15,548 nt of DNA from the IMG/VR virus record IMGVR_UViG_2636416166_000011; one strand, 5' to 3'. The translations under genes were made by a program, and so were the position numbers. The notes beneath the pieces were generated by a model. The model did not search any database, was not told where the DNA came from, and saw nothing but the letters and a program-made list of their open reading frames with translations. This DNA comes from a virus. Lineage: Duplodnaviria; Heunggongvirae; Uroviricota; Caudoviricetes. Below, piece after piece: positions 1-15,548 of this stretch; positions within the stretch are counted from its first letter, which is position 1, and every line of letters starts with the position of its first letter.

Positions 1-303
1 CTCCGGACGTAAATCACCATCCTTTGGTGCATTCAGAAACGCGTTCAGTGTCCCCGGTGCATCAGTCGGTGCCACATCAATATCCCCGACACGGGTTGGC
101 TGCCAGCCGTTACAGTGAAGCGCAACCTCGTAATACCCCGGCTCAGCCTCAATCACATAAGCACCGTTATTGTCCGTCACGCAAGTGGCAACAACGTGTG
201 CCACAACGGTCGGACTGGTTCTTCTGGCCCGCAGTTCAATCGCACAATTTACGACAGGTTTACCCGCCCCATCTTTCAGTACACCTGAAATCTTTACTGC
301 CAT
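1..303 (-). CDS. stf: Side tail fibre protein Stf, N-terminal 101 codons (partial; continues beyond window start)
   Basis: Minus-strand ATG at 303..301; translation MAVKISGVLKDGAGKPVVNCAIELRARR... matches my recollection of the lambda Stf N-terminus (MAVKISGVLKDG.GKPV.NC). Lies immediately downstream of lom as in lambda. Open to the window edge. Confidence 0.75.
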   Translation of the reverse strand, partial: MAVKISGVLKDGAGKPVVNCAIELRARRTSPTVVAHVVATCVTDNNGAYVIEAEPGYYEVALHCNGWQPTRVGDIDVAPTDAPGTLNAFLNAPKDGDLRPE

Positions 304-313
304 ATTCACCCCA

Positions 314-340
314 CAAAAAGCCCGCCTGAACCAGCGGGCT
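314..340 (-). terminator. Rho-independent terminator downstream of lom
   Basis: Minus strand reads AGCCCGC-TGGTTCAG-GCGGGCT followed by TTTTTGTGGGG: 7-bp GC-rich stem (plus 319..325 / 334..340) with T-run (plus A-run 314..318). Sits 27 nt after the lom stop. Confidence 0.6.
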
Positions 341-366
341 GTCATAACACTGTGTTACCTGGCTAA

Positions 367-966: not shown

Positions 967-990
967 AATTACCTCTCGCTTTTCTGCAAT

Positions 991-1014
991 AAAAAAGGCA
1001 CCATTTCTGGTGCC
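991..1014 (-). terminator. Rho-independent terminator between J and lom
   Basis: Minus strand GGCACCA-GAAA-TGGTGCC followed by TTTTTTATTG (plus stem 997..1003 / 1008..1014, A-run 991..996). Starts 20 nt after the J stop. Confidence 0.6.
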
Positions 1015-1033
1015 CGTATCTGGGTTATAAAAT

Positions 1034-4000
1034 TCAGCTAATCGTGATGCCTGCAGTGGCTTTCTTCATCACAACAACCAGCAAATCGCTGATACTTGCT
1101 GTGGGATACCAGCCATTTACCAGCCATGCCGATACAGAAAACTCCAGCGTCATGTGACCGTGACCGGCAGGCATATCAATAACACCCGTATATATCAGCG
1201 TATTATCCAGGGTCGTTCGGTTATAAATTTCAGCACCGTTTTTCTTCACTATCAGGCTGCATGACGAATAAATATTGTTATTCTTCCGCTCATGTTTAGC
1301 ACCGCGAAACGCCACCGCGGGAATAACAATTTGCCGATCAAACGGCTGATCGTCATAAACCCTGACGGTAATGGTCCCTGATGGCCACCTCTCCGGTGCC
1401 CGGGAGTCCCGTGGGAAAGGTTTGCCCACTGTTTTAACGAGATCGCCTTCAATCTGGTTCGCGGACAATTTTCCCAGAACCCGACAGTTCTTATTAATCG
1501 TGACGTTGTTGAGCGTCCCGGAGTTCGCGTTCACGTTACCGCTGATATCGGCATTTTTCGCCGTCAGCCGTCCGCCAGGTGTCAGGGAAAATGCCGGAGG
1601 ATTACCGCCGCTGGTAATGGTCGGAGCCGTCAGGCGTTTCAGGAACACGTCGTTCATGAATATCTGATCGCCCTGACCAACAAACATCGGCTTTGTGTTG
1701 CCATTCGCAGGATTAATCATCGCAATCCTGTCTGCCGCCAGCAGCACCTGACTCTGCATTCCTGCTGGCGTATTCTCAATACCGGCACCGATACCCGCAA
1801 TATAAAGGCGTCCGTCCTTCATCTGTTGCAGCTTCACAGCCCACATGCTGTTCAGGTTATTATTTGTATCAACCTGAACTTTCTGTATCTGCTGGATTGC
1901 AGCACTCTGATTTTCCAGTTTTTTATTGACGGTTTGCGTGATTTCATTGCTGACATTCGTAATGGACGTCCTGATTTCAGTCAGGTCCGGCGCAAGCTGA
2001 CCGTTATCAATCTGCGTCCACAACTCCTTGCCGAGATGCGTGTTATTGATCAACCCTTTATAAAAACTCAGATAACCTTCCGCATCATCGCTCGCCCGAC
2101 CGACGGCCTCCACAAATGCCGATTTGCCAACGGTGTTCACACTGCGAACGTAAAAATAATAATCATGGCCCGGCCTGATATTGATACTGGCGGCTATCCA
2201 GTACAGCGCCGTGCCAAGATAGCGGGCGCTGGTTTCAACCTGCCTGATATCCGCAATCCGCTTTTCCGAAAACCAGAACTCAAACTGCACCGTCGGGTCG
2301 TATACAGCCAGTTTCGGGACCGCCGTTATCTGAAAATACCCCGGTATCAGTTCAATAGTGACGGCGCTGCCGGTGCGGCAATCCGGAACGATACCGACGC
2401 CGGATCGCCCTGCTGCCCCCGGGCATTTACCGCCCGGACTGTCAGACTGTAATTCCCCAGCGCCAGCTGCCTGAAGCGGTATGTGGTTTCCGTCGTCCTG
2501 GCTGTGCTGACCAGCCGCTCACTGCCGTCATCCGCTGCCACGGTCAGGCGAAGCAGGAAGCTCACACCCTTCACCACCTTCGGCGTGTCCCATCGCGCCA
2601 GCACCTGATATTCCCCGCTGTCTGCGGTGACTTCGGCGGTCAGATGCTGCACCGCTGGCGGCGTGACACCATTCACCGTGCCGCGCCGGTCACCGTCAAA
2701 GTGTGCCCCGTTATCCACGATGGCCTCTTTTTCCGGCACATGCTGCACGGCGGTGATGGCATACGTGCCGTCGTCGTTCTCACGGATACTCACGCAGCGG
2801 AACAGGCGCTGGCGCAGCGTCGGCAGCTTCAGCCCCCACACGCTGTATTCTGCAACGCCGTCAGGAACCCGGCTCACTTTCACCTTCACGCCGTCGGTGA
2901 CGGACTGAACCTCCACGCTGACCGGATTGCCATTTCCGTCAACCAGGCTTATCAGCGTGGTACAGGAGGACGGCAGCGTGATTTCACGGTCGAGCGTCAG
3001 CGTCCGGGTCTGGCTGTTCACCGCCAGTACGCGACCACCGGTGCTGATACCGGCATAATCATCATCGCAGATTTCAATGACATCACCCGGTACATGGCGA
3101 AGCCCTTCTGCGCCGACGCTGAAGTCCACGGTCTGCGTTTCCAGCAGTTCCGTTTTAATCAGCCACAGCCCGGCGCGGTGCGCCTGTCCCCGGCTGGTAC
3201 AGCCAAAGGCATCCATCTTCGTGACGTTACGACCGTAACGGAGAATGGCCTGCGCGTCCTCCACAAGCTCTGTCGCCGTCTCATGACCGTTGTCCGGATC
3301 AATCCAGTTCACCTCAACGACATTATGGCGGTCCTTCAGGGCGCTGAAGCTGTAGCGGAACGGCGCGCCATCATCCGGCATCACCACATTACTGCGGTTA
3401 TAGGTCCACACTTTATCCGACGGTCGGTCCTGCACGAACGTCAGCGTCTGCCCGTTCCATACCGGCATACAGCGCATCGCCGAGCAGAAATCACTGAGAA
3501 CATCCCACGCCTTACGCTGTGTGGTCAGGTAAGCGTTACAGGTGATGCGCGGCTCCGTGCCGCCAAATCCGTCCGGCACTGACTGGTCGCAGTACTGGCC
3601 GATGACATACAGCGCCCATTTGTCCACATCTGCCGCACCAAGACGTTTCCCCATGCCGTAGCGCGGATGAGTGAGCATGTCCCACCGACACCAGGCCATG
3701 TTGTTGCTGTATGCTGGCTTAAGCGTTCCGTCCCAGATACCGCTGTATTGCCGCGTCTGCGGGTTATAGTTCGACGGCACCTGCAGAATGCGCCCGCGAA
3801 GATGATAATTGCGACTCACCTGCTGGTTACCGAACTGCTCTGAATCCACCTGCACGCCGACCAGCGCCGTGTTCGGGTAGCACTGTTTCACATCGATGAT
3901 TTCGGTGTATGACGACCAGAGCGTTTTGTTCTGCAGCTGGTCTGTGGTGCTGTCCGGCGTCATCCTGCGCATCCGGATATTAAACGGGCGCGGCGGCAGG

Positions 4001-4512
4001 TTACCCACCACCACCGAGGCCAGATACTGCGAAGTGGTTTTGCCCTTAATGGTGATGTCTTTTTCCGTCACCCAGCCACCGTTACGCTGTATCTGAACCA
4101 GCAGGCGGACTTCCGACGGATTCCGGTCCCCCTTTGAGGTGTTTTCCACCAGTGCCTGCACACCGAAGGTCAGGCGCAGACGATCAATGTTTGCCGACGT
4201 GATGGTCCGGGTGATCGGCGTGTCGTATTTCACTTCCGTACCCAGCACAGTCTCTGAGCCGGAAGATTCAACCCCCTCCGGCGGTGTCTGCTCCTGCTCG
4301 CCGGCGCGGAACACCACCGTAACACCGGAAAAGTTTGTCTTCCCCTCGCTGTCCAGGACTGGCGTACCGTTCAGCAGCACGCTTTTTAATCCATCCACCG
4401 GACCGTCAACCGGCCCTTCGCTGATGGCATCAATCACACTCAGCAACTGCGTGGATTTCAGGTTGTCCTTCGCTTCGCGCGGGGTATGCCCCTTACTGCT
4501 GCCTTTACCCAT
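1034..4512 (-). pseudogene. J: Tail tip host-specificity protein J (central fibre), reading frame broken near 2356..2361
   Basis: Two ORFs in different frames: 2347..4512 (721 aa, MGKGSSKGHTPREAKDN... ends ...[13 protein letters not shown]) and a second frame open from upstream of 2400 to 1034 (…[33 protein letters not shown]… to …[10 protein letters not shown]). Lambda J as I recall it reads ...[19 protein letters not shown]..., so the two frames join with an apparent 1-nt deletion in minus-strand TCAC-TATTGAA. Combined length about 1159 codons versus 1132 in lambda. Confidence 0.85.
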
Positions 4513-4533
4513 TCCTCACGCTCCATAAACGAC

Positions 4534-4554
4534 AAAACCGCCCGCAGGCGGTTT
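4534..4554 (-). terminator. Candidate stem-loop (weak terminator/attenuator) in the I-J intergenic region
   Basis: Minus strand AAACCGCC-TGCG-GGCGGTTT followed by TGTCGTTT; 6-bp GC stem (plus 4537..4542 / 4547..4552). T-run is interrupted, so termination efficiency is doubtful. Confidence 0.3.
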
Positions 4555-4572
4555 CACATGAAACATTTTGCA

Positions 4573-5214
4573 TCAGCGACCAATCACCACAACCTGACCA
4601 CCATCCCCTTCGTCTGCCGTGCTGATCTCCTGAGATACCACCCGCGACCCCACGCGCATTTCACCGTACAGAACAGGCAGAACATTGCCCTGGGCAACCA
4701 TGTTATCCAGTGAGGAGAAACAGGTGTTCTGTTTGCCGTTATCCGTTGTCTGTGTACGGGGAGTTCTGGCTTTCGGTGCCAGCATCTGTGCAACACCGCC
4801 AAGCGTCATACTGGCACCGAGAGAAAACAGCAGATTACTCGCCATAATTCCTACCCCCGGCATCCATATAGCAACCGCCATAACAGCTGCCCCCAGCACC
4901 GCCTGAAACACACCGCCACTTTTAGCTCCCACCAGACGCGGTACTATGTGGATCACTGCACCATTTGCCAGCGGCTCATTAAGACGGGCAGACAATTCGG
5001 TTTCACCTGCATCACGCCCGGCAATGCGCACCTGATACCAGCCGTCACTCAGTTTCTGACGAAACGCCGGGAGCTGTGTGGCCAGTGCGCGGATGGCTTC
5101 AGCCCCCGTTTTCACACGAAGGTCGATGCGGCGGCCAAATCGTTGCAAATCCCCGTAAAGGCAGATGCGTGCCATTCCCGGTGACGCCAGAGGGAGTGTG
5201 TGCGTCGCTGCCAT
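4573..5214 (-). CDS. I: Tail tip assembly protein I, 213 aa
   Basis: Translation MAATHTLPLASPGMARICLYGDLQRFGRRIDLRVKTGAEAIRALATQLPAFRQKLSDGWYQVRIAGRD... and C-terminus ...VLYGEMRVGSRVVSQEISTADEGDGGQVVVIGR match lambda gpI as I recall it; central hydrophobic segment. Confidence 0.85.
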   Translation of the reverse strand: MAATHTLPLASPGMARICLYGDLQRFGRRIDLRVKTGAEAIRALATQLPAFRQKLSDGWYQVRIAGRDAGETELSARLNEPLANGAVIHIVPRLVGAKSGGVFQAVLGAAVMAVAIWMPGVGIMASNLLFSLGASMTLGGVAQMLAPKARTPRTQTTDNGKQNTCFSSLDNMVAQGNVLPVLYGEMRVGSRVVSQEISTADEGDGGQVVVIGR

Positions 5215-5855
5215 TTGTCGGTATACCTCTCTCGTTTACTCAGTTGTTCAGGAATATGGTGCAGCAGCTCACCGTCGCCGCAGTAAATGGCGGCATGATT
5301 CGGCACCGATGAACCAAAACAGCACAGCAGCACATCGCCCGGTTGTGCTGATGACAACGGCACCTGATACAGCCCTGTGGCCTCCAGATTATCCAGATAG
5401 AGATTCTGACCGTGACGCCACCAGTCATCCCCGCGATGAAAATCCGGCATCTCAATCCCCGCCAGATGATAAGCATCCCGGAACAGCGTGTAACAGTCCG
5501 TCACCCCGTGCTCAAAGCGCCGCCCGGTGAGATGCGGCACACAGCGGAACTTGTGAATCGCCCCCCGGCAGACCAGCCACCACGGCAAATCACTCTGCAC
5601 CTGCAGCCGCCGGTCAGCCTCACTCAGCCAGGGCAGACCACCGGGATGACTGTGGACCAGTGCCACAATCTCCCCCTGCATCTCTGCCCGCAGCCAGTCT
5701 TCCGGTGCGATACGAAAATACGCCTCCGGCTCTGCAGAAATATTCACACAAGGGATATACCGCTCCCCCTCCGGCGTTCTCACCACGAAGCCACACGACT
5801 CCGCTGGCGCACATCGCCGGGCGTGCGCCAGAATCGCTGATTCTGTCTGTGTCAT
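5112..5855 (-). CDS. K: Tail tip assembly protein K (MPN/JAMM plus NlpC/P60-like domains), 247 aa
   Basis: The six-frame ORF 5112..6119 is over-extended; the real start is the ATG at 5855 (MTQTESAILAHARRCAPAESCGFVV...), 4 nt after the L stop. Contains HSHPGG (JAMM-like) and Cys/His/His residues (VTDCY, NHAAIY, LLHH) of an NlpC/P60-type fold. Overlaps I by 103 nt. Confidence 0.8.
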   Translation of the reverse strand: MTQTESAILAHARRCAPAESCGFVVRTPEGERYIPCVNISAEPEAYFRIAPEDWLRAEMQGEIVALVHSHPGGLPWLSEADRRLQVQSDLPWWLVCRGAIHKFRCVPHLTGRRFEHGVTDCYTLFRDAYHLAGIEMPDFHRGDDWWRHGQNLYLDNLEATGLYQVPLSSAQPGDVLLCCFGSSVPNHAAIYCGDGELLHHIPEQLSKRERYTDKWQRRTHSLWRHREWHASAFTGICNDLAAASTFV

Positions 5856-5859
5856 GGAT

Positions 5860-6559
5860 TTACTGAGAAAGTTTATTGATGGAAAGGAAACCGCCGAAAT
5901 TACCGGTATTGTTGCGCAACTCACACCCGCGCATACACTTGCTGCATTTGTCCTTCCGGATATCCGTCGTTGGTTTGTCGAACTCGTCAGCCACTGCCCT
6001 GCCCGTGTAACCACACTCATCAGAACGGTAGGTCCACATACAGGTATTCGCCAGCATGATACGCCCCGGGAAAACCGCGCCATCCGTCTCCGTTGGTGTG
6101 GCCAGCACAAAAGAGGCACTGACCGCGCTCAGTTCGCTGCACTGCTCGATGCGCCAGCGGCTGATCACCTCCTGCTCCGGATCGGCGTCACTGTTTCCGT
6201 TGACGAAGTTCACCGCATCCAGAAAACGGGCGTAAACCTTACGCCGGACCACCGTTCCGCCGACCAGACTCTGCAGATCTTCCGCCATCCCGGCGACCAT
6301 ACCGTACAGGTTAGAAACCGTCAGCGTGGGGCGCGTACTGGTGCCTTTGCCATTCAGTTCAAAACCACTCCCCCTGAATGGGATACGGCTGATACTGTCG
6401 CCCCTGCCAGGTGACCGGCTCACCTTTTTCGTTCTGCTCATTACAGAAAAAATAACGTTCTCCACCGACCTCTGTCAGGTCGATTTCCCAGAGCACCACG
6501 CTGGCCGACTGCTCCGCACGGGTGCATTCATTCAGTGTTTCCTGCCGGATATCCTGCAT
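5860..6559 (-). pseudogene. L: Tail tip protein L, reading frame broken at a C5/G5 homopolymer (6370..6374)
   Basis: N-terminal ORF 6359..6559 (MQDIRQETLNECTRAEQSASVVLWEIDLTEVGGERYFFCNEQNEKGEPVTWQGRQYQPYPIQGEWF*) and second frame down to 5860 (…GSGFELNGKGTSTRPTLTVSNLYGM…FGGFLSINKLSQ*). Removing one G from minus-strand CAGGGGGAG gives ...YPIQGSGFELNGKG..., the lambda gpL sequence as I recall it. ATGA overlap with the M stop at 6559. Confidence 0.85.
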
Positions 6560-6888
6560 CAGTTCACCACCTGTTCAAAATCGGCCGTTACAGTCACCCA
6601 TAACGCCCCCACGCTTGCCGACCATTTACGACAAGCCACCCTGATCGGTTTCCAGTCATAAGGTGGCGTCCACTGAAATGCGCGGACGCCACCGTGCCGT
6701 TCCAGAAAGGCTTTTAAAGGTGGGTGTTCACCTTTACGAACACGTATCGTCACGCTGTAAGTCGACAGCAGATTATTCAGTCCCGCCGGGCGACGCTGTT
6801 CATAACCATCACCCAGCTTCACTGCCACCACTTTTGGCTCTGATACCACATTCATATCCGGGCGCACCTTCCAGCGAAACGTCTCCAT
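6559..6888 (-). CDS. M: Tail tip protein M, 109 aa
   Basis: METFRWKVRPDMNVVSEPKVVAVKLGDGYEQRRPAGLNNLLSTYSVTIRV...FEQVVN; same length as lambda gpM and collinear with it as I recall; start overlaps the H stop (TAATG). Confidence 0.85.
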   Translation of the reverse strand: METFRWKVRPDMNVVSEPKVVAVKLGDGYEQRRPAGLNNLLSTYSVTIRVRKGEHPPLKAFLERHGGVRAFQWTPPYDWKPIRVACRKWSASVGALWVTVTADFEQVVN

Positions 6889-9800
6889 TACCGGTATGCT
6901 CCACTTAACCGGCCACCATCACGGGCCTGCTGTTGCATAAAGTCCGCGGCCGCTTTTTTCCCGAGGTCATAAACCACCTTCAGTGCTGCCGGACCTATCT
7001 GCCCGTTCGTGCCGTCGTTATTGATCCCGATGTTGTACTGCGGGGCAAACATCACCATGCCTGAACCACCAGTATCCGCCACAACCCCCAGCTTACCATC
7101 AGCACCGCGACGCAGTGGCAGAATGGCTTTAGGTCCCGCTTCCCCCATCACACCCGCGCCTTTTGCAAAAGCAAAAAACGTCGGACGGTTAACCACCGTG
7201 CCACTGTAGCGACTCAAATCAGCAGACTGGTAAACACCGCCATCAGCATTAGTCGTGAAGCCGAATAAAGAGCCGACGCCCTTTACCGCCTGCATCATGG
7301 CCATCTGTGCCATAATTCTGGCCATATCTGACAACAGGGAAGAGGTGAAGGATTTAAAATTCAGCTTACCGGTGGTACAGAATGTCGCCAGTGCATTACC
7401 GGCACTGCTGAATGCCACTGTAAACATCTGTTCTGCCGTTCCCACCGCATTATCCGCATCCGCCGTAAAATTCTGAAACGCCCGCATGGCACCGTTTTTC
7501 CAGTCGCCCTGCGCCACTTCCAGTTCCTGCCAGTAGCGTTTGTTTTCATTCAGTTGTCGCTTCAGGCTCCCCTTCAGCACCTCCTCAGCCCTCCGGTAGT
7601 CCTCCGTCCCGTAAGTGCCTTTCTGGCGACTGTCATTCTCAAGCTGTTGCAACTGTTGCCGGTATTCCTGCCGGATGCGCAACTGTGCCTGGTAGCGCTG
7701 CCGCTGCTTATCCCCCATACCTGCAGTGGCAATATCCAGATTGTGCTGCTCACGCAGTGCACGTTCTTTGTCTGCCAGCTGGCTGGTCAGCTGAACCGTT
7801 TTTTTTCTCAGGTCGTTAAGCGCTGTCTGTTTCTGCAGCTCCTGCTGTTTCACATCCAGCAGCGTCAGCGCCTGAATCAGCTCATTCTTACGGGCCAGCA
7901 CACTCTTTTCATCTGCCGTCAGCTTTTTCCCGTCCAGGTCGCTGATGCGCTGCTGCAGGGCCAGAAGCTGTTTATGCGCTTCAGTCATCCTTTCAGTGGC
8001 AATGCCTGCTGACTGTCTGGCAGCAGCAATCTGCCCTTCCACCTGTGCCTGCTGCTGACTGTACTGCAGCAATAACCGGGTGGCCTCATCATTACGGGTT
8101 GCCCGTGTATTTTTCTTAATGGCTTTTTCGTAACGTTCATTTTCACGCTGTATCGCCGCATCCCTGACAGCCTGGTCGGCGTACTGCATGGCATTAATAC
8201 GCGCAATTTCCCGCTGATGTCGTGCAGCTTCCGTTTCATTCATCCGGTTCAGCGCGGCATTTTCAGCATTCCGGCGTTTCTGTTGCTCCTGGTAATTCCG
8301 TTCTGCCTGCGCTTTTGCATCCTGCAAATCCTTCCGGCGTTTTTTCTCCTGAAGATCGTTAAGACGCTGCTGATCGTACTCCACCTGTGTGGAGGCGTTT
8401 GTCCACGGATATTTTTTCGCGCGCTGAATTTTTTCCTGTAACGCATCAATCTGCGCATCCAGCGAGTCTTCACGACCAATATTCATGGCCGCATCCCAGA
8501 ACTGCTTCCACCAGTCAGACAAGGTTTGCAGCGTACTACCCAGCGCATTGAGATTATTATCAATATCAGATGTGCGTTTACCGGTTTCCTCTGCCAGCGC
8601 AGACATGGCGATCCGGGCCGCATCACTGGACCGCCCCTGCTCCCCAAGGACGCGTATCTGCTCAAGCTGAGTGGCAGTCAAAAAATGCAGCGCATTGTCC
8701 AGCGCCTTCGCGGCATTTACAGGATCATCCTTCAGCCGCTTAAACTGATTTATGGTATCGCTGACCGACTGGCCAACCGATCGCTCCATCTGTGCGGCAG
8801 CTTTCGCCACCATACCAATATCGTTTCCATGAAATGCCCCACTGCCCACCACCTGTGCCAGCGCACCGGCTGCCGCATGTTGCGTGATACCATTCCCGGA
8901 TATGGCCCGGCTGAGTTTCCACAACTGCCCGACAGTGACACCGGCATAATGTCCCGTCAGCGCCAGCTGACGGTTAAATTCCTCGCCCTCCTTCCGGCCG
9001 TCATGCCAGGCTTTACCCAGACCCAGGACCGCCGCGACAAGTCCGCCAATAACGCCGCCAGTCATCATGCCTTTCGGCGACATCAGTGCGCCTGTCCATC
9101 CGGCACGGTTAGCCAGCGTTATCCCGGATCCCCTCAGCGCACCAAAATTGCCGCGCGCCATCTGACTGATTAACACCCCCAGCTCCCGCCGGGCTGCCGC
9201 ACTTTTCAGCCCCAGCGAATGTGTGGCTTTTCCTGCCCGCTCCATTTTGCGGATATACACTTCTGCAGCACTGCTTACCCCCAGCTGAGCCGCCCTGGCG
9301 CGAAGCAACTCAGAAGACGACAGATTCTGGCGGGTTGCCTGCTCTTTAAGCTGGCGGATAAACGCCGCTTTCTGCCGGGTGGCCTGTTCCTCTGCCTGCG
9401 TCAGGGCACGGGTTTTCGCCGTGATCTCCGAAATCAGCGCCAGATAATCCTGCTGACCAACCCCGCCACTGTTTCTGGCCTGTCGGATCTGCTGCTGAAT
9501 ACGCTGTAATTCCTGAAGCCCCGCACCGGCCTGTTTCACACTGTCAATCTGGCGATAAAAGGCGGCAGCCGCTTTATCCTGCGCCTCCGCCAGTGCCCTG
9601 GCCTGCGCCTGTTCCTCGCGCATTTTCTGATTCAGGGCATCCACGCGCAGACGGGTTTGTTCCACCTCACGGGCCATGCGTTCATGAGCCCGTGCATTCT
9701 TCTCCACCGTCTGCGCATGGGCTGATGCTGCTGTTGCAGCCGAAGAAGCCGCATGCATTGTCTGCCGGGCCGCCTGAGTCTGACGCTCCATAAAACGCTG

Positions 9801-9929
9801 CATACGGGCAGAAGACCGTTCTGCATCACCGGCTGCACCATTCAGAAGGTTTTTGATACGGGGAATTTCATTTTTAAACTCTGCCGCATCAATCCCCAAA
9901 TCAATGACCAGGTTGGCTATCTGGTCCAT
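6888..9929 (-). CDS. H: Tail tape measure protein H, about 1013 aa
   Basis: Long ORF with a coiled-coil-rich, Q/R/E/A-rich central region; N-terminus MDQIANLVIDLGIDAAEF and C-terminus ...NNDGTNGQIGPAALKVVYDLGKKAAADFMQQQARDGGRLSGAYR resemble lambda gpH ends. Start chosen at ATG 9929 preceded by GGAGG (9940..9944); the ORF track begins at an upstream TTG at 9959, which is possible but less likely. Confidence 0.85.
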   Translation of the reverse strand: MDQIANLVIDLGIDAAEFKNEIPRIKNLLNGAAGDAERSSARMQRFMERQTQAARQTMHAASSAATAASAHAQTVEKNARAHERMAREVEQTRLRVDALNQKMREEQAQARALAEAQDKAAAAFYRQIDSVKQAGAGLQELQRIQQQIRQARNSGGVGQQDYLALISEITAKTRALTQAEEQATRQKAAFIRQLKEQATRQNLSSSELLRARAAQLGVSSAAEVYIRKMERAGKATHSLGLKSAAARRELGVLISQMARGNFGALRGSGITLANRAGWTGALMSPKGMMTGGVIGGLVAAVLGLGKAWHDGRKEGEEFNRQLALTGHYAGVTVGQLWKLSRAISGNGITQHAAAGALAQVVGSGAFHGNDIGMVAKAAAQMERSVGQSVSDTINQFKRLKDDPVNAAKALDNALHFLTATQLEQIRVLGEQGRSSDAARIAMSALAEETGKRTSDIDNNLNALGSTLQTLSDWWKQFWDAAMNIGREDSLDAQIDALQEKIQRAKKYPWTNASTQVEYDQQRLNDLQEKKRRKDLQDAKAQAERNYQEQQKRRNAENAALNRMNETEAARHQREIARINAMQYADQAVRDAAIQRENERYEKAIKKNTRATRNDEATRLLLQYSQQQAQVEGQIAAARQSAGIATERMTEAHKQLLALQQRISDLDGKKLTADEKSVLARKNELIQALTLLDVKQQELQKQTALNDLRKKTVQLTSQLADKERALREQHNLDIATAGMGDKQRQRYQAQLRIRQEYRQQLQQLENDSRQKGTYGTEDYRRAEEVLKGSLKRQLNENKRYWQELEVAQGDWKNGAMRAFQNFTADADNAVGTAEQMFTVAFSSAGNALATFCTTGKLNFKSFTSSLLSDMARIMAQMAMMQAVKGVGSLFGFTTNADGGVYQSADLSRYSGTVVNRPTFFAFAKGAGVMGEAGPKAILPLRRGADGKLGVVADTGGSGMVMFAPQYNIGINNDGTNGQIGPAALKVVYDLGKKAAADFMQQQARDGGRLSGAYR

Positions 9930-10250
9930 AACGCACACCTCCGGAAATACCTTCCCCAAGATGCATCAGTTCTTCGTCCGTTCGCTCCGGTATCCCGTTC
10001 TCTTCCGGTAAAAGGCTGAAATCAGCCACCGCAGCATCACTGCTGCCGGACACCATTCTCACGATCAATGCCTTCAGCGAGGCAAACTGCGCATCCATCC
10101 ACACATCACTGAAGCTCTGCATCCGGAAATAATCGCCCCCTCACCAAGCTCAGTGGCCGACATTTCCGACAGCATCCGCCGCCAGTCTGCCCGCCGGAAC
10201 TCCCGGGCAAGCCGCATGACAAACTGCATTTCCCGCGTCAGGACTTTTCC
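9901..10250 (-). pseudogene. T: Tail assembly chaperone T region (expressed as G-T fusion by -1 frameshift); the T frame itself is interrupted at a C5/G5 run (10136..10140)
   Basis: The -1 frame relative to G is open from 10262 to a stop at 10074 (…AGKVLTREMQFVMRLAREFRRADWRRMLSEMSATELGEG…). A third frame is open from 10140 to 9901 (GGDYFRMQSFSDVWMDAQFASLKALIVRM…GPDSQPGH*), ending 29 nt inside H. Adding one G to the minus-strand G5 run would fuse the two into one T-length ORF of about 120 codons. Confidence 0.6.
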
Positions 10251-10627
10251 GGCGTCAGCGCCTCATGATCATCATCCCCGGCATTCTCAATGGTCCCCAT
10301 ACCGCTCAGCGACAGAACCCTCTCCGCCCCCGCGCCCAGCGCATCATACGACCATGTTGTCATAATGGATGCGCAAAGCGTCTCAACATCCTGAGACTGC
10401 TCAGCATTCCACAGTGAGCGGGAAACCAGCCAGGCATTGATATCCATTCCCATACGCAGAAAAGCAATCTGTCGTTCAGCCTCCGGCAGTTCTCCCTCCT
10501 GTGCATCAAACTTTGCCGTTCGCTGCTGAACAAACGTCAGATATTCAATTCTCTGCAGCCCGGACAGCTCACTGAGCACCACGGACTGTTTTTCATAATT
10601 AAACGTATCCTGTTTCAGAAACATCAT
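10238..10627 (-). CDS. G: Tail assembly chaperone G, about 129 aa
   Basis: ORF 10238..10642 begins at a TTG; more likely starts are the tandem ATGs at 10627/10624 (MMFLKQDTFNYEKQSVVLSELSGLQRIEYL...) with GGAG 6 nt upstream. Acidic C-terminus (...ENAGDDDHEALTPEKS). Position between V and T/H. Confidence 0.8.
   Translation of the reverse strand: MMFLKQDTFNYEKQSVVLSELSGLQRIEYLTFVQQRTAKFDAQEGELPEAERQIAFLRMGMDINAWLVSRSLWNAEQSQDVETLCASIMTTWSYDALGAGAERVLSLSGMGTIENAGDDDHEALTPEKS
10244..10250 (-). other. Putative -1 programmed ribosomal frameshift site for G-T fusion (GGAAAAG)
   Basis: Minus-strand heptamer G-GAA-AAG in the G frame, 2 codons before the G stop. The -1 frame opens just upstream at 10262, so the shift must occur in the last 8 codons of G. 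Position matches lambda, where the slip site as I recall is G-GGA-AAG. Confidence 0.4.
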
Positions 10628-10640
10628 GTTCTCCGGATGC

Positions 10641-10663
10641 AAAAAGCCCCGGATAACCGGGGC
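10641..10663 (-). terminator. Rho-independent terminator between V and G
   Basis: Minus strand GCCCCGG-TTAT-CCGGGGC followed by TTTTTG (plus stem 10646..10652 / 10657..10663, A-run 10641..10645). Begins 20 nt after the V stop and ends just before the G Shine-Dalgarno. Confidence 0.6.
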
Positions 10664-10682
10664 AATGATGAGTATCGTCCTG

Positions 10683-11423
10683 TTATGGTGCGCTGACGGT
10701 CACCGCAGCCACTGCCACAAACTCTCCGTCAGAGGTCATGCCCACGATGCTGACACTGCCCTGCTTCACGCCTTTCACCGTGGCCACAAGCCCGCTCAGG
10801 GTCACCGAAGCAGTCTGAGGATCTGACGAATGCACACTGATCGCTTTGTCACTGGCCCCGTCAGGTTTTACTGTAAAGGTCAGTGTGGTGGTTGCTCCCG
10901 CTTTGACACTGACAGATGCCGGTGCCACCGTCAGTCCGGTAACACCCACGGTTTCAGCGCCCTCCTCTGCCAGATACGGACGCCCCACACCGCTGATTTT
11001 TACAGTACGGGTCATCACCTCTTTTGAGGTAATGGTTTTACCCAGTGAACTCAGCCAGCCACGGAAAACATCAACCGTACCGTTGGGGTATTTGATACGA
11101 AACGCGCAGACTTCACCGGAATCGAACAACTGAACCAGTTTTTTCTGCCCGCTGTCACCCGGACGCCAGGCCAGCGTCGCCAAAGTATCACCGACGGATT
11201 TCTGCCCCTGGGTTGTCGTTTTCCAGTCTGCATCTTCATCATCGAGATAAGTGTCATCTTCTGCATCAGCGGTCATTTCGCCAGGTTGCAGATCCTTCAC
11301 CATCGCAAGACGCAGCCAGTCAGTGTCCGACAAAGGGTTCGCAAACGCATCGCCCTTGCCGGTGTACATCCAGAACGTCGTTCCCGCACCTTTCGTCTTT
11401 GCCAGTGGATTTGGTGTGGTCAT
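10683..11423 (-). CDS. V: Major tail tube protein V with C-terminal Ig-like (Big_2-type) domain, 246 aa
   Basis: The ORF track starts at an upstream alternative codon; the real start is ATG 11423 (MTTPNPLAKTKGAGTTFWMYTGKGDAFANPLSDTDW...) preceded by AAGGAGG. Collinear with lambda gpV as I recall (…YLDDEDADW…FPNGTVDVFRGW…) and same length. Confidence 0.9.
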   Translation of the reverse strand: MTTPNPLAKTKGAGTTFWMYTGKGDAFANPLSDTDWLRLAMVKDLQPGEMTADAEDDTYLDDEDADWKTTTQGQKSVGDTLATLAWRPGDSGQKKLVQLFDSGEVCAFRIKYPNGTVDVFRGWLSSLGKTITSKEVMTRTVKISGVGRPYLAEEGAETVGVTGLTVAPASVSVKAGATTTLTFTVKPDGASDKAISVHSSDPQTASVTLSGLVATVKGVKQGSVSIVGMTSDGEFVAVAAVTVSAP

Positions 11424-11433
11424 TGCCACCTCC

Positions 11434-11835
11434 TTAATTCGTGTACGTGATCTGGTACGTGATTTCCGCCATCGCCCAGGTGGCCATCTCATTATCACGT
11501 TGATAGTTAAAACCGAGTGGGATCATGGTGTCGATGAGTCCGGAAAGCACCGGAATATCCTTCATGGCCGGAAATATGGTGTTCTCCATCCACGTATCCA
11601 GCTCAGAATCCGGCGCCTGTGCACGGACGAAAACGGCAATATGCAGAACAGCCTGCCAGTCGTCCTCATCCGTCATTTTTCCGGTGTACTGCGCATCACT
11701 CAGCCACACCGCCACGGCGGGCAGTTCCTGCGCATCAATAAATGCCGGAAGCCCGTCAAAAAGCACGACATTCCCCCCGCATTCGCCCTTCAGGCTTGCC
11801 AGTACTGCCTGGCGGATTTGTGTGTGCCTGTTCAT
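11434..11835 (-). CDS. U: Tail tube terminator protein U, 133 aa
   Basis: MNRHTQIRQAVLASLKGECGGNVVLFDGLPAFIDAQELPAVAVWLSDAQYTG... resembles lambda gpU (MKHTELRAAVLDAL...FFDGRPAVFDEADFPAVAVYLTGAEYTG...) as I recall; ATGA overlap with the Z stop. Confidence 0.85.
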   Translation of the reverse strand: MNRHTQIRQAVLASLKGECGGNVVLFDGLPAFIDAQELPAVAVWLSDAQYTGKMTDEDDWQAVLHIAVFVRAQAPDSELDTWMENTIFPAMKDIPVLSGLIDTMIPLGFNYQRDNEMATWAMAEITYQITYTN

Positions 11836-12419
11836 CCCAAATGTATCCTCAGTTGCTGTTTCAGGGCATACCCCAGCTGTTTCGGCATTTCCGCGGCAAT
11901 GATGCGATCGCGGGCATCCTCAAATGCCTGTGTCAGCGGTCCGGCCAGCGGAATTTTCACAACCTCCACGGGCAGACGATTTTTTCTGGGCCGCCCCTTA
12001 CTGTCCTTTCCTGTTTCAAAACACGCTTCAGGAAGACGCCTGAGAACATGCCAGCGACCGTTCGCCAGCTGCTGGATAAACGCACCACGAAAAAAGTATT
12101 TCCCCACCTTCAGTCCGTCACCGGCACGCCGGCATGTTGTGCCAAGCTTAATGGCGGGCAGATTGCCCCGGTTAACACGGATACGGGCATACATTTTTCC
12201 TGCCGGACTGGCTTTAAATACCCGGACGCGCTGACGCACCAGTTTCAGGGGGCCCCCCTTCACCTGGTTATCTCCCGCAACGGTATTCCTGGCGACCTGC
12301 CGGGTGGCAACCGAGACAACTTTTGCAGCAACCCGGTTTACTGCCCATGCGCTGGCCTGCGGCACCATACGGGTATCAAGACTGTTCAGATTGCGGATGG
12401 CATTCTCAAGCCCCCTCAT
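11832..12419 (-). CDS. Z: Tail completion protein Z, 195 aa
   Basis: MRGLENAIRNLNSLDTRMVPQASAWAVNRVAAKVVSVATRQVAR...GAFIQQLANGRWHV...VVKIPLAGPLTQAF...LGYALKQQLR resembles lambda gpZ (MKGLERAIQNLNSL...GAFIQQLKNGRWHV...) as I recall. Confidence 0.85.
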   Translation of the reverse strand: MRGLENAIRNLNSLDTRMVPQASAWAVNRVAAKVVSVATRQVARNTVAGDNQVKGGPLKLVRQRVRVFKASPAGKMYARIRVNRGNLPAIKLGTTCRRAGDGLKVGKYFFRGAFIQQLANGRWHVLRRLPEACFETGKDSKGRPRKNRLPVEVVKIPLAGPLTQAFEDARDRIIAAEMPKQLGYALKQQLRIHLG

Positions 12420-12564
12420 AATATCCCCCTGCCCTTACGTTTCCTGCTCCTTCACGCCGCAACCGGATATAACTACATCCGCCGTCATCAGGAGTAATAC
12501 GATCCACGCTGAAAGACTCCCGGCCAATCATCAGCGAATCATTGCGACACAGCTGTAAAATATC
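12406..12564 (-). pseudogene. FII: Head-tail joining protein FII, 3' fragment (last 52 codons), truncated by IS66 insertion
   Basis: Minus-strand frame entering from the IS66 boundary reads DILQLCRNDSLMIGRESFSVDRITPDDGGCSYIRLRREGAGNVRAGGYYEGA*; compare my recollection of the lambda gpFII C-terminus ...RQLRRGDTLTIGEENFWVDRVSPDDGGSCHLWL.... Stop overlaps the Z start. No start codon; the frame is cut by the IS66 left end. Confidence 0.6.
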
Positions 12565-12589
12565 GTAAGCGTAAACTGACCGCCGTATG
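12565..12589. repeat. IS66-family left terminal inverted repeat
   Basis: GTAAGCGTAAACTGACCGCCGTATG, matches the right end in inverted orientation. Confidence 0.7.
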
Positions 12590-12650
12590 TAGCCATTAAG
12601 CCTGTATTGGTAACGTAGGTGCCCACCTTTTCAACTAGTGGACACCTGTT

Positions 12651-13070
12651 ATGGAACAGAAAGCATTATCTGCAGAACCCCGCAGATCATTTTCAAATGA
12701 GTTTAAACTTCAAATGGTTAAACTGGCTTCACAACCAGGAGCCTCTGTTGCCCGTATTGCCCGGGAACACGATATCAATGATAACCTGCTGTTTAAATGG
12801 CTCAGGCTCTGGCAGAACGAAGGGCGCATATCGCGGCGTCTTCCGGTAACAACCTCTTCTGACACTGGCGTTGAATTATTACCTGTGGAGATAACGCCGG
12901 ATGAGCCGAAAGAACCTGTGGCTGGTCTTACTCCGTCTTTATCTACTCAGACTACAGTTAGTGCCAGCTCCTGCAAGGTGGAGTTCCGTCACGGTAACAT
13001 GACGCTGGAAAATCCTTCACCAGAGCTGCTCACAGTGTTGATCCGTGAACTGACCGGGAGGGGACGATGA
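12651..13070 (+). CDS. IS66-family accessory protein TnpA (orf1), 139 aa
   Basis: First ORF of the element (MEQKALSAEPRRSFSNEFKLQMVKLASQPGASVARIAREHDINDNLLFKWL..., helix-turn-helix-like N-terminus); stop overlaps the orfB start (ATGA). Confidence 0.8.
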   Translation: MEQKALSAEPRRSFSNEFKLQMVKLASQPGASVARIAREHDINDNLLFKWLRLWQNEGRISRRLPVTTSSDTGVELLPVEITPDEPKEPVAGLTPSLSTQTTVSASSCKVEFRHGNMTLENPSPELLTVLIRELTGRGR

Positions 13071-13417
13071 TCTCACTCCCGTCAGGCACCCGCATCTGGC
13101 TCGTTGCTGGGATAACCGATATGCGTAAGTCTTTCAACGGGCTGGGTGAACAGGTACAGCATGTGCTGAATGATAATCCCTTCTCCGGTCACCTGTTCAT
13201 CTTCCGTGGCCGACGGGGTGACATGATTAAAATCCTGTGGGCTGATGCTGATGGTCTGTGCCTGTTCACCAGACGCCTGGAGGAAGGCCAGTTTATCTGG
13301 CCTGCTGTGCGTGACGGCAAGGTATCCATTACCCGCTCGCAACTGGCAATGCTCCTCGATAAGCTGGACTGGCGTCAGCCAAAAACATCCCGCCTTAATG
13401 CACTGACAATGTTGTAA
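13067..13417 (+). CDS. IS66-family TnpB (orf2), 116 aa
   Basis: MISLPSGTRIWLVAGITDMRKSFNGLGEQVQHVLNDNPFSGHLFIFRGRRGDMIKILWADADGLCLF... is the characteristic IS66 Orf2 sequence; translationally coupled to orfA. Confidence 0.85.
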   Translation: MISLPSGTRIWLVAGITDMRKSFNGLGEQVQHVLNDNPFSGHLFIFRGRRGDMIKILWADADGLCLFTRRLEEGQFIWPAVRDGKVSITRSQLAMLLDKLDWRQPKTSRLNALTML

Positions 13418-13447
13418 AAATGTCATGGCCGGATTATAAAAACGGCC

Positions 13448-15040
13448 ATGAATCAAAAATACCTCATTCGCATTGCAGAACTGGAATGCCAGCTCCGTCA
13501 GAAAGACCAGCAACTGAGTCTGGTTGAAGAGACGGAGGCCTTCCTGCGCTCTGCACTGGCCCGCGCCGAAGAAAAGATCGAAGAAGATGAACGGGAAATA
13601 GAACATCTGCGGGCTCAGATAGAAAAACTGCGCCGGATGCTGTTCGGTACCCGTTCTGAAAAACTGCGTCGTGAAGTTGAACAGGCTGAGGCCCTGCTGA
13701 AACAACGCGAACAGGACAGTGATCGTTACAGTGGGCGGGAAGACGATCCGCAGGTTCCCCGCCAGTTGCGACAGTCTCGTCATCGTCGCCCGTTACCGGA
13801 GCATCTGCCCCGCGAAATAAATCGCCTGGAGCCAGAAGAAAGCTGTTGCCCGGAGTGTGGCGGTGAGCTGGATTATCTGGGGGAAGTCAGCGCAGAACAA
13901 CTGGAACTGGTGAGCAGCGCTCTGAAAGTGATCCGCACAGAACGGGTAAAAAAAGCCTGTACAAAATGTGACTGCATCGTTGAAGCACCGGCACCATCCC
14001 GTCCGATAGAGCGTGGTATCGCGGGCCCGGGGTTACTTGCCCGCGTGTTAACGGGAAAATACTGCGAACACCTGCCACTGTATCGTCAGAGTGAAATTTT
14101 TGCCCGTCAGGGTGTCGAACTGAGCCGTGCATTACTCTCCAACTTGGTTGACGCGTGCTGCCAGTTAATGACGCCGCTGAATGATGCTCTGTACCGTTAT
14201 GTAATGAACAGCCGCAAAGTTCACACTGATGACACACCAGTAAAAGTGCTGGCACCGGGCAGGAAGAAGGCGAAAACAGGATATATCTGGACGTATGTCC
14301 GGGATGACAGGAATGCCGGTTCGCCAGAGCCTCCGGCGGTCTGGTTCGCCTACTCACCGGACCATCAGGGTAAACATCCGGAGCAGCACCTTAGTCCCTT
14401 CCGGGGTATCCTGCAGGCAGATGCGTTTAATGGTTACGATCGGCTGTTCAGTGCCGAACGAGAAGGCGGCGCGTTGACGGAAGCAGGATGCTGGGCTCAT
14501 GCGCGGCGCAAAGTCCACGATGTATATATCAGTACCAAAAGCGCGACAGCGGAAGAAGCCCTGAAACTAATCGGTGAGCTGTACGCCATCGAGCACGAAA
14601 TACGCGGGTTGCCGGTGTCTGAACGCCTGGCGGTCAGGCAAATGCAGAGTAAACCGCTACTGACTTCCCTGTATAAGCTGATGCAGGAGAAAGAACACAC
14701 GTTATCGAAAAAATGCCGTCTGAGAGATGCGTTCCGGTATATCAGGAAGCACTGGGTTGCGTTGTGCAACTTCAGTGATGATGGTCTGGCTGAGGCGGAT
14801 AATAATGCCGCGGAAAGAGCGCTTCGTGCAGTCTGTCTCGGAAAGAAAAACTTTATGTTCTTCGGCAGCGATCACGGTGGAGAGCGTGGTGCGCTACTGT
14901 ACGGGCTGATCGGCACCTGCCGACTGAACGGTATCGATCCGGAAGCGTATCTGCGCTATATCCTGAGCGTACTGCCGGAATGGCCTTCCAACCGTGTTGA
15001 CGAACTCCTGCCATGGAACGTAGCACTCACCAATAAATAA
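13448..15040 (+). CDS. IS66-family transposase TnpC (orf3), 530 aa
   Basis: N-terminal coiled-coil/leucine-zipper region, zinc-ribbon CPECGGEL...CTKCDC, then DDE-type catalytic core (…HTDDTPVKVL…YIWTYV…, …DAFNGYD…, …CWAHARRKV…); ends just before the right inverted repeat. Confidence 0.85.
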   Translation: MNQKYLIRIAELECQLRQKDQQLSLVEETEAFLRSALARAEEKIEEDEREIEHLRAQIEKLRRMLFGTRSEKLRREVEQAEALLKQREQDSDRYSGREDDPQVPRQLRQSRHRRPLPEHLPREINRLEPEESCCPECGGELDYLGEVSAEQLELVSSALKVIRTERVKKACTKCDCIVEAPAPSRPIERGIAGPGLLARVLTGKYCEHLPLYRQSEIFARQGVELSRALLSNLVDACCQLMTPLNDALYRYVMNSRKVHTDDTPVKVLAPGRKKAKTGYIWTYVRDDRNAGSPEPPAVWFAYSPDHQGKHPEQHLSPFRGILQADAFNGYDRLFSAEREGGALTEAGCWAHARRKVHDVYISTKSATAEEALKLIGELYAIEHEIRGLPVSERLAVRQMQSKPLLTSLYKLMQEKEHTLSKKCRLRDAFRYIRKHWVALCNFSDDGLAEADNNAAERALRAVCLGKKNFMFFGSDHGGERGALLYGLIGTCRLNGIDPEAYLRYILSVLPEWPSNRVDELLPWNVALTNK

Positions 15041-15045
15041 GCGTC

Positions 15046-15308
<263 letters not shown>

Positions 15309-15548
15309 CCCCTTCTCATTCAGGCCACGGATAATGGTGGTGTACAGACCATCCTGCGTGCTCAGTGACGGCGGGAATGAAGTTTCAATCGGACGAACAA
15401 CGACCACGCCAGAATTCAGATCGGTGTGCTCATTCAGGAGATCGATTTGCCAGTCAACAAAGGCGCGCAGGAAGTTACCTTCACCAAACTGAATGATACG
15501 TTCTGGATACTGTGCACCGGGAATATCGCGACGATTTAGTGTTTTCAC
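15309..15548 (-). pseudogene. uxaB: Altronate oxidoreductase (tagaturonate reductase) UxaB, N-terminal 80 codons only; 3' part removed at the IS3-family element end
   Basis: Minus-strand translation from the window edge (GTG at 15548..15546) [80 protein letters not shown] matches my recollection of the E. coli UxaB N-terminus (mannitol-dehydrogenase family Rossmann fold). The stop codon ending the ORF at 15306..15308 is the terminal TGA of the IS element, not a native stop; the full protein is about 480 aa. Confidence 0.7.

What the first reader, a model, noticed from the sequence alone, without database searches (positions are those of the whole stretch)
10238..10262. Putative G-T programmed -1 frameshift uses a non-canonical heptamer GGAAAAG
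The only place where the -1 (T) frame and the G frame are both open is the last 8 codons of G, and the only slippery-looking sequence there is G-GAA-AAG. The A-site AAG to AAA lysine slip is classical, but the P-site GAA to GGA re-pairing needs a middle-position mismatch, unlike lambda's G-GGA-AAG as I recall it. Either frameshifting efficiency is altered or a different mechanism operates. The conserved placement supports a real recoding site.
Basis: partly seen in the sequence, partly recalled or inferred. Interest (0 to 1): 0.45.

Follow-up and report, generated by a model that had tools for sequence, protein, structure and literature searches.

The report
Known phage tail frameshift site, broken copy
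This is the usual slip site where lambda-like phages make their G-T tail-assembly fusion protein; the odd-looking GGAAAAG is the commonest version in this family and is already annotated in phage phi80, and in this prophage remnant the downstream T gene is broken.

Summary
On the minus strand, gene G (10627..10238) ends ...CCG GAA AAG TCC TGA. The -1 frame is open only from 10262, and G-GAA-AAG (10250..10244) is the only slippery-looking sequence in the overlap.

It is not a decayed GGGAAAG. The junction is identical in 17 sequenced phages of the mEp460/cdtI lineage and in every related IMG/VR locus examined. The canonical variant in this sequence context has 0 IMG/VR hits, against at least 120 for the actual sequence.

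Across genera the core is G-GNA-AAR at a fixed distance from the conserved T motif. GGAAAAG is also used by phi80, LLS, Gifsy-2, mEp043 and N15-like, Klebsiella, Proteus and Providencia phages. GenBank already labels GGAAAAG as the -1 slip site in phi80 and LLS.

Likely mechanism: a cognate tRNA-Lys slip from AAG to AAA, with tRNA-Glu re-pairing on GGA through a central G·U. An upstream GAGG 10 nt away may help.

In this window T has a 1-nt deletion at 10140/10139, so the fusion would stop after 184 instead of 242 residues. L and J also carry indels, and an IS66 element replaces the head genes. The site here is therefore a relic.

Verdict: ordinary and already known.

The parts
10238..10627 (-). 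Gene G, tail assembly chaperone (128 aa plus stop TGA at 10240..10238)
   Evidence: Pfam PF06894 Phage_TAC_2, E=2.7e-40. Lies between the V homologue and the tape measure gene.
10244..10250 (-). Slip heptamer G-GAA-AAG. In the 0 frame GAA (Glu) is in the P site and AAG (Lys) in the A site; in the -1 frame these read GGA AAA.
   Evidence: Identical in mEp460, PhiR55_1 and FDAARGOS_943, in 83 of 83 close loci and in at least 120 IMG/VR contigs. Annotated as the -1 PRF site in phi80 and LLS.
10238..10262 (-). The only stretch where the G frame and the -1 (T) frame are both open
   Evidence: Three-frame translation. The -1 frame stop is TGA at 10265..10263.
10261..10264 (-). SD-like GAGG, with a 10-nt spacer to the heptamer (11 nt before its second base); candidate upstream stimulator
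   Evidence: Meets the motif and spacing criteria of Sharma et al. 2014. An SD-like motif at this spacing occurs in 7 of 13 non-canonical lineages, against a 17-19% background. Inferred, not shown.
10074..10250 (-). T, N-terminal part, read in the -1 frame from the slip site: 58 codons, then a premature stop at 10076..10074
   Evidence: Intact relatives read 116 codons from the slip site.
10139..10140 (-). Site of the 1-nt deletion in T (GAG|GGGGC here; GAGTGGGGC in intact relatives)
   Evidence: Alignment A1 and coordinates. The same deletion is found in L028-L030 and in 2 of 111 other IMG/VR loci.
9901..10137 (-). T, C-terminal part, now out of frame with the N-terminal part
   Evidence: Pfam PF06223 Phage_tail_T, E=1.2e-10..
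6888..9929 (-). Tape measure gene H, whose start overlaps the end of T
   Evidence: ORF. The start is placed by homology to the annotated H in FDAARGOS_943 and mEp460.
10683..11423 (-). Major tail tube gene V homologue, upstream of G
   Evidence: Pfam PF16461 Phage_TTP_12, E=4.3e-66, plus Big_2.

Best explanation
This is the conserved programmed -1 ribosomal frameshift site of a lambda-type tail assembly chaperone pair (G and G-T). It belongs to the mEp460/cdtI lineage of lambdoid prophages.

In intact relatives a small share of ribosomes slip back one base at G-GAA-AAG, six bases before the G stop codon. They then read GTC CTG ACG... and produce a 242-aa G-T fusion that is colinear with lambda gpGT.

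Proposed steps:
- tRNA-Lys (anticodon mnm5s2UUU) moves from AAG to AAA, which is a cognate re-pairing. This A-AAR element is the invariant part of the site across genera.
- Peptidyl-tRNA-Glu (mnm5s2UUC) moves from GAA to GGA. It keeps the first-position G:C pair and the third-position A:U pair, and forms a U·G pair in the middle.
- Because the P-site re-pairing is weaker than on lambda's GGGAAAG, context probably helps. The candidate here is the SD-like GAGG 10 nt upstream, which could pair with the 16S rRNA 3' end as in dnaX.

GGAAAAG is the normal, selected heptamer of this family and not a mutated GGGAAAG.

In this window the site is a relic. A 1-nt deletion 110 nt downstream truncates T, so the fusion would be 184 aa and lack most of the T domain. 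The prophage is otherwise degraded as well.

Shown: gene identities, frame relations, conservation, the T lesion and prior database annotation. Inferred: the tRNA pairing details, the role of GAGG and the efficiency.
For: - Gene order is Z-U-V-G-T-H-M-L-K-I-J-Lom, with Pfam matches PF06894 (G) and PF06223 (T).
- T is in the -1 frame and overlaps G by only 25 nt.
- The conceptual G-T fusion of the 99.9% identical relative aligns colinearly with lambda gpGT across the junction, E-K|V against G-K|V.
- The junction CCGGAAAAGTCCTGA is identical in sequenced phages mEp460 and PhiR55_1. The lineage occurs in 17 phage records and in 1847 of 5426 complete E. coli genomes.
- All 83 close loci carry GGAAAAG. 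The canonical variant has 0 IMG/VR hits against at least 120 for the actual sequence.
- Distant T-family loci keep G-GNA-AAR at the same position. GGAAAAG occurs in Citrobacter, Klebsiella, Proteus, Providencia, Gifsy-2, phi80, LLS, mEp043, Kp4865-4 and an N15-like phage. GGCAAAA occurs in Kluyvera and Ewingella, GGTAAAG in Pantoea, and AGAAAAG in Morganella.
- phi80 and LLS GenBank records mark GGAAAAG as the -1 slip site and carry joined G-T coding sequences.
- In E. coli, A_AAG is the most shift-prone tetramer, and GAGG 6-17 nt upstream is an experimentally validated stimulator (PMC4066793).
- An SD-like motif at that spacing occurs in 7 of 13 non-canonical lineages against a 17-19% background.
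- T lesion.
Against: - No frameshift product has been measured for this lineage, so the evidence is comparative.
- In a reconstituted E. coli system G GAA AAG gave mainly 0-frame product at all EF-G concentrations, and was chosen as the unfavourable control (PMC6924986).
- Tetramer A_AAG without a strong stimulator is at background, about 0.15%.
- No downstream RNA structure better than shuffled sequence was found (z = -0.5 and 0.0).
- The SD-like element is absent from the phi80 group, which uses the same heptamer. The lineages in the enrichment test are not independent.
- GGCAAAA, GGTAAAG and AGAAAAG show that P-site re-pairing is weakly constrained, which fits a single-tRNA slip at least as well.
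Confidence: 0.85

Rival explanations
1. Same site, different mechanics: only tRNA-Lys slips (tetramer A-AAG), either in the A site or as P-site tRNA while the next codon waits. The upstream tRNA-Glu does not need to re-pair, and the conserved GG has another cause.
For: The codon before A-AAR varies (GAA, GGA, GCA, GTA) and position 1 is A in Morganella, while A-AAR is invariant. In 7 lineages a 0-frame stop codon follows the heptamer directly, which would favour a P-site tRNA-Lys slip while the A site awaits a release factor. Natural A_AAG single-tRNA sites are known: IS1222 G_CGA_AAG and Bacillus cdd A_CGA_AAG (PMC5009743).
Against: Positions 1-2 are GG in 12 of 13 non-canonical lineages, although position 1 is a third codon base. 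This suggests selection for first-position re-pairing of the P-site tRNA. Tetramers alone are at background without a strong stimulator, and none was found here. In this window's lineage the stop is one codon further on, not adjacent.
Confidence: 0.3
2. The heptamer is a decayed canonical site: a G-to-A point mutation of GGGAAAG in a dying prophage.
For: The window is a degraded prophage with lesions in T, L and J and an IS66 insertion. GGAAAAG differs from lambda's heptamer by one base.
Against: The same heptamer is found in 17 sequenced phages of the lineage, including mEp460, cdtI, Tritos and Ayreon, and in all 83 close loci. The canonical variant in this context has 0 IMG/VR hits against at least 120. 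Distant genera and phi80 use it as well.
Confidence: 0.02
3. T is made on its own from the ATG at 10229 (the way PGAP and GenBank annotate it), by re-initiation after the G stop 8 nt upstream, so no frameshift is needed.
For: All 17 phage records and RefSeq annotate T as a separate coding sequence starting at this ATG. The stop and the start are 8 nt apart.
Against: The in-frame ATG is not conserved. Citrobacter, Gifsy-2, the phi80 group, Proteus and lambda have no start codon there, while the overlap and the A-AAR are conserved. In lambda, T is reported to be made only as the G-T fusion, at roughly 1:30 relative to G (PMC5009743; PMC3296357).
Confidence: 0.05
4. The frame change happens at the RNA level, by RNA polymerase slippage on the A run.
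For: There is a run of four A in the site.
Against: From established knowledge of transcriptional slippage, productive realignment needs runs of about 7 or more A or T; four is far too short. The lineage variants GGCAAAA and GGTAAAG keep a codon-phased A-AAR and not a longer run.
Confidence: 0.02

Closest known systems
Bacteriophage lambda G / G-T tail assembly chaperone -1 frameshift (Levin, Hendrix & Casjens 1993; Xu, Hendrix & Duda 2004, 2013, 2014; cited via PMC5009743)
   Same: Same gene order (V-G-T-H) and the same Pfam families. T is in the -1 frame, and the slip site sits at the same position, 32 nt before the L-A-R-E codons. The A-site slip AAG to AAA is the same, and the junction is K|V.
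   Different: The P-site codon is GAA (Glu) and not GGA (Gly), so re-pairing has a middle-position U·G instead of a wobble-position pair. The G stop is 1 codon after the site, against 5 in lambda. An SD-like GAGG lies 10 nt upstream, and lambda has none within 6-17 nt. T identity to lambda is only about 38%.
phi80 gpG-T (FN582354.1) and phage LLS (PQ299149.1): annotated -1 slip site GGAAAAG
   Same: The same heptamer at the same position in a homologous G-T pair, explicitly annotated as the -1 programmed frameshift site with a joined coding sequence.
   Different: T is about 42-43% identical. The downstream context differs (GGAAAAG CCC TTG..., stop 5 codons on). The phi80 group has no SD-like motif at the stimulatory spacing. 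Records of the mEp460/cdtI lineage do not annotate the frameshift.
E. coli dnaX -1 frameshift (A-AAA-AAG with an SD-like element 10 nt upstream and a downstream hairpin)
   Same: tRNA-Lys slip AAG to AAA, and an SD-like element about 10 nt upstream.
   Different: dnaX has a fully slippery P site and a strong downstream stem-loop. Here there is no significant structure, and a few per cent would suffice, not about 50%.
Single-tRNA A_AAG sites: IS3, IS1222 (G_CGA_AAG) and Bacillus cdd (A_CGA_AAG)
   Same: A non-slippery codon precedes A-AAG, and the site depends on the shiftiness of tRNA-Lys(UUU).
   Different: IS elements pair the tetramer with a strong pseudoknot or hairpin, and none is evident here. 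Here the P-site tRNA can still keep 2 Watson-Crick pairs plus a G·U.

Membership tests
Lambda-type G/G-T tail assembly chaperone with programmed -1 frameshift | Two ORFs located between the major tail tube gene and the tape measure gene | tested here: met
   V homologue 10683..11423, G 10238..10627, T fragments 9901..10250, H 6888..9929.
Lambda-type G/G-T tail assembly chaperone with programmed -1 frameshift | Homology of the first ORF to gpG and of the second to gpT | tested here: met
   PF06894 E=2.7e-40; PF06223 E=1.2e-10. The conceptual fusion aligns with lambda gpGT at E=9e-42.
Lambda-type G/G-T tail assembly chaperone with programmed -1 frameshift | Second ORF in the -1 frame, overlapping the 3' end of the first, with no conserved start codon of its own | tested here: met
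   The ATG at 10229 is not conserved in other lineages.
Lambda-type G/G-T tail assembly chaperone with programmed -1 frameshift | A conserved slip-prone sequence inside the overlap | tested here: met
   G-GNA-AAR at a fixed position in 23 lineages. Invariant GGAAAAG within the lineage.
Lambda-type G/G-T tail assembly chaperone with programmed -1 frameshift | Intact T reading frame, so that a full-length fusion can be made | tested here: not met
   A 1-nt deletion at 10140/10139 gives a stop after 58 codons instead of 116. The feature is met in 108 of 111 relatives.
Lambda-type G/G-T tail assembly chaperone with programmed -1 frameshift | Frameshift fusion protein detected, at a few per cent of G | not testable with these tools
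   Needs a western blot or mass spectrometry on an intact relative.
Canonical X-XXY-YYZ heptamer | Positions 1-3 identical and positions 4-6 identical | tested here: not met
   The sequence is G-GA-A-AA-G: position 3 is A, not G. Positions 4-7 (A-AAG) do meet the A-site half.
Z_ZZN tetramer (A_AAG) -1 sites with a stimulator (Sharma et al. 2014) | A_AAG in the 0 frame | tested here: met
   GA A_AAG with AAG as a 0-frame codon.
Z_ZZN tetramer (A_AAG) -1 sites with a stimulator (Sharma et al. 2014) | Downstream hairpin or pseudoknot starting 4-10 nt after the motif and more stable than its surroundings | tested here: not met
   The fold of the following 63 and 108 nt is no better than shuffles (z=0.03 and -0.50). 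The only local hairpin starts 0 nt after the motif.
Z_ZZN tetramer (A_AAG) -1 sites with a stimulator (Sharma et al. 2014) | [quoted passage not shown] | tested here: met
   GAGG at 10264..10261, spacing 11. Whether it functions is not testable here.

The most novel reading that the evidence does not exclude
Weak, non-canonical G-GNA-AAR slip sites in lambdoid G-T genes may be tuned by interchangeable context elements. These would be either an SD-like sequence 10-14 nt upstream (as here) or a 0-frame stop codon directly after the heptamer. Together they would reach the few per cent of fusion protein needed. If so, the heptamer used as the non-slippery control in ribosome kinetics (G GAA AAG) is a widely used natural programmed site. 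Both of its slipping tRNAs (Glu and Lys) carry mnm5s2U34, so these phages could be more sensitive than lambda to the host's tRNA-thiolation state.
Probability: 0.3. Interest if true: 0.4.

Novelty: already known. Interest (0 to 1): 0.15.

Why it matters
It matters little for discovery. The G-T frameshift is a textbook case, and GGAAAAG is already annotated as the slip site in phi80 and LLS.

Two practical points follow:
- None of the 17 phage records of the mEp460/cdtI lineage, nor the RefSeq annotation of this prophage type in about a third of complete E. coli genomes, annotates the fusion. T is called as a free-standing ORF from a non-conserved ATG.
- The heptamer that ribosome biochemists use as an unfavourable control is the most widespread natural G-T slip site in enterobacterial lambdoid phages. 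Measuring its efficiency in its native context, with and without the upstream GAGG, would be a cheap and informative experiment.

For this window, the site belongs to a dead tail module.

Tried and rejected
- Decay from GGGAAAG: rejected, because the heptamer is invariant in sequenced phages and the canonical variant is absent.
- Downstream stimulatory structure: RNA folds of the 63 and 108 nt after the site are no better than shuffles.
- Synonymous-site conservation around the site within the lineage: uninformative, because T and the junction are nearly invariant across 50 distinct sequences.
- The search for related loci in viral contigs with lambda T placed first returned only 99%-identical lambda-type loci. 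This confirmed GGGAAAG in 80 of 80 but added no diversity.
- Literature searches for GGAAAAG or 'G GAA AAG' with 'frameshift' found no phage paper, only Peng et al. 2019.
- Xu et al. 2004 and the phi80/Lula genome paper are not held, so I could not check whether they list or test this heptamer.
- The PRFect supplement does not hold the motif definitions.
- A 2025 preprint on frameshift-prone 10-mers does not mention this sequence.
- The source genome was not identified. No complete E. coli genome matches the whole window; the best matches are 98% identical over 1..12564.
- The independent-initiation and transcriptional-slippage rivals were considered and given low weight (see rival explanations).

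Full report
**Observation.** All relevant genes are on the minus strand. G starts at ATG 10627 and ends ...GAG GCG CTG ACG CCG GAA AAG TCC TGA, with the stop at 10240..10238. The -1 frame carries a TGA at 10265..10263, so the two frames are both open only across 10262..10238, exactly the coordinates given. The only slippery-looking sequence there is G-GAA-AAG at 10250..10244. Lambda has GCG GGA AAG at the equivalent place. The heptamer is not rare in itself: the window has 4 copies against 1.84 expected. The case rests on position and conservation.

**Context.** Pfam assigns the neighbours as a lambda-type tail module:
- Z (11832..12419), U and V.
- G (PF06894, E=2.7e-40).
- T (PF06223, but only on the ORF 9901..10137).
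- H (tape measure), M, L, K, I and J.
- An Ail/Lom gene (367..966).

**Conservation within the lineage.** The 821-bp G-T region is 95-99% identical to 17 phage records, including mEp460, cdtI, Tritos, Ayreon, HannyBb and PhiR55_1, and to prophages in 1847 of 5426 complete E. coli genomes. In an alignment with mEp460, PhiR55_1 and the 99.9% identical FDAARGOS_943 prophage, the junction CCGGAAAAGTCCTGA is identical. All 83 close loci from IMG/VR and the phage records carry GGAAAAG. The 26-mer with the actual heptamer occurs in at least 120 IMG/VR contigs, and the same 26-mer with GGGAAAG occurs in none.

**Conservation across the family.** T homologues down to about 40% identity were located in genomes of other genera and in other phages. 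The G/T junction was extracted from each. In every lineage the heptamer lies 32 nt before the codons for L-A-R-E.

| Heptamer | Lineages |
|---|---|
| G-GAA-AAG | this lineage, Citrobacter, Klebsiella spallanzanii, Proteus, Providencia, Gifsy-2, phi80, LLS, mEp043, Kp4865-4, an N15-like Enterobacter phage |
| G-GGA-AAG | lambda, 21, PhiR12_4, Stx2a phages; also 80 of 80 lambda-type IMG/VR loci |
| A-AAA-AAG | VT1-Sakai, Stx1 phages |
| G-GCA-AAA | Kluyvera, Ewingella |
| G-GTA-AAG | Pantoea |
| A-GAA-AAG | Morganella |
| G-GGA-AAA | Providencia rustigianii |
| C-CCA-AAA | Vibrio phage HY01 |

The invariant element is the lysine A-AAR slip. The codon before it varies, but positions 1-2 are nearly always GG. 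GGAAAAG is the most widespread form.

**Prior knowledge.** The phi80 GenBank record (FN582354.1) has a joined gpG-T coding sequence and a misc_feature 'slippery sequence for -1 translational frameshift' whose bases are GGAAAAG. Phage LLS (PQ299149.1) is annotated 'minus-one programmed translational frameshift site GGAAAAG'. Gifsy-2 is annotated as a G+G' frameshift hybrid. The heptamer's use is therefore already on record, although records of the mEp460/cdtI lineage and RefSeq call T as a free-standing ORF.

**Mechanism.** A conceptual slip at GAA-AAG gives a 242-aa fusion in the intact relative that aligns colinearly with lambda gpGT, with junction E-K|V against G-K|V.

From established tRNA knowledge, and from PMC5009743 and PMC3296357:
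- tRNA-Lys (mnm5s2UUU) reads both AAG and AAA, so the A-site move is cognate.
- tRNA-Glu (mnm5s2UUC) on GGA would keep G:C at position 1 and A:U at position 3, with a U·G in the middle.

Sharma et al. 2014 show that A_AAG is the most shift-prone tetramer in E. coli, but that it sits at background without a stimulator. They also show that SD-like GAGG, GGAG or AGGA 6-17 nt upstream stimulates frameshifting. Peng et al. 2019 used exactly G GAA AAG as their unfavourable control and saw mainly 0-frame product.

The window has GAGG at 10264..10261, 10 nt before the heptamer. An SD-like motif at the stimulatory spacing occurs in 7 of 13 non-canonical lineages, against a 17-19% background in the same genes. 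The binomial P is about 0.003-0.006, but the lineages are not independent. Seven lineages instead have a 0-frame stop codon directly after the heptamer, and the phi80 group has neither element.

No downstream structure beats shuffled controls.

I favour a dual slip with near-cognate P-site re-pairing, assisted by the SD-like element. A pure tRNA-Lys slip is the main rival.

**State of this copy.** Relative to all intact relatives the window lacks one T, reading GAG|GGGGC where they read GAGTGGGGC, at 10140/10139. This shifts the rest of T into another frame. The -1 frame then stops after 58 codons instead of 116, and the fusion would be 184 aa. The same deletion is present in L028-L030 and in 2 of 111 further IMG/VR loci, so it is an inherited mutation and not a read error.

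The module carries further damage:
- A 1-nt insertion in L, in a C run at about 6370.
- A 1-nt deletion in J at about 2363, which splits J into ORFs of 721 and 418 aa.
- An IS66-family element (12651..15040) where the head genes should be, followed by a chromosomal gene fragment.

The recoding site here is a relic in a defective prophage.

**Verdict.** It is ordinary and already annotated elsewhere, and this copy is non-functional.

Noticed in passing
window 10139..10140 (minus strand): A 1-nt deletion in T (GAG|GGGGC here, GAGTGGGGC in relatives) splits T into a 58-codon piece and an out-of-frame C-terminal piece (9901..10137). It is shared with a few other public assemblies (L028-L030, L300, L312) and is absent from 108 of 111 relatives.
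   Followed up: yes
window ~12565..15070, ORFs 12651..13070, 13067..13417 and 13448..15040 (+): A complete IS66-family element: an HTH transposase ORF, TnpB_IS66, and a 530-aa DDE_Tnp_IS66 protein. It sits immediately upstream of tail gene Z, where the head genes should be. Similarity to related prophages ends at 12564. In L030 a copy of the same IS end abuts position 11416 instead.
   Followed up: partly
window ~2363 (J), ORFs 2347..4512 and 1034..2290 (-): The tail tip gene J is split into 721-aa and 418-aa ORFs in different frames by a 1-nt deletion (GAC-GGC here, GACAGGC in relatives).
   Followed up: partly
window ~6370 (L), ORFs 6359..6559 and 5863..6465 (-): The minor tail gene L appears frameshifted by an extra C in a C run (CCCCC here, CCCC in relatives, including the closest one, L312). 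A homopolymer sequencing error cannot be excluded.
   Followed up: partly
window 15306..15548 (-): A fragment of a mannitol-dehydrogenase-family gene lies directly beyond the IS66 element. The prophage therefore lacks its head, terminase and early regions on this side.
   Followed up: no
window 11417..11647: The closest relatives that share the T deletion (L028, L029) have 168 nt where the window has 231 nt, near the 3' end of gene U. This is a small mosaic replacement between otherwise 99.7-100% identical flanks.
   Followed up: no
L091, L093-L096, L103, L089, L090, L102, L190 (junctions listed): In Proteus, Providencia, Morganella, Kluyvera and Ewingella G-T pairs, the 0-frame stop codon (TAG or TAA) follows the heptamer directly. 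This is a 'shifty stop' arrangement that lambda, phi80 and this lineage lack.
   Followed up: partly
GenBank/RefSeq records of the mEp460/cdtI lineage: None of these records annotates the G-T fusion. T is called as an independent coding sequence from an ATG (window 10229) that is not conserved in other lineages. This is an annotation gap affecting about a third of complete E. coli genomes.
   Followed up: partly
window 367..966 (-): A full-length Ail/Lom outer-membrane protein gene (PF06316, E=1.9e-128) lies downstream of J, in the position of lambda lom. It is apparently intact, unlike the tail genes.
   Followed up: no
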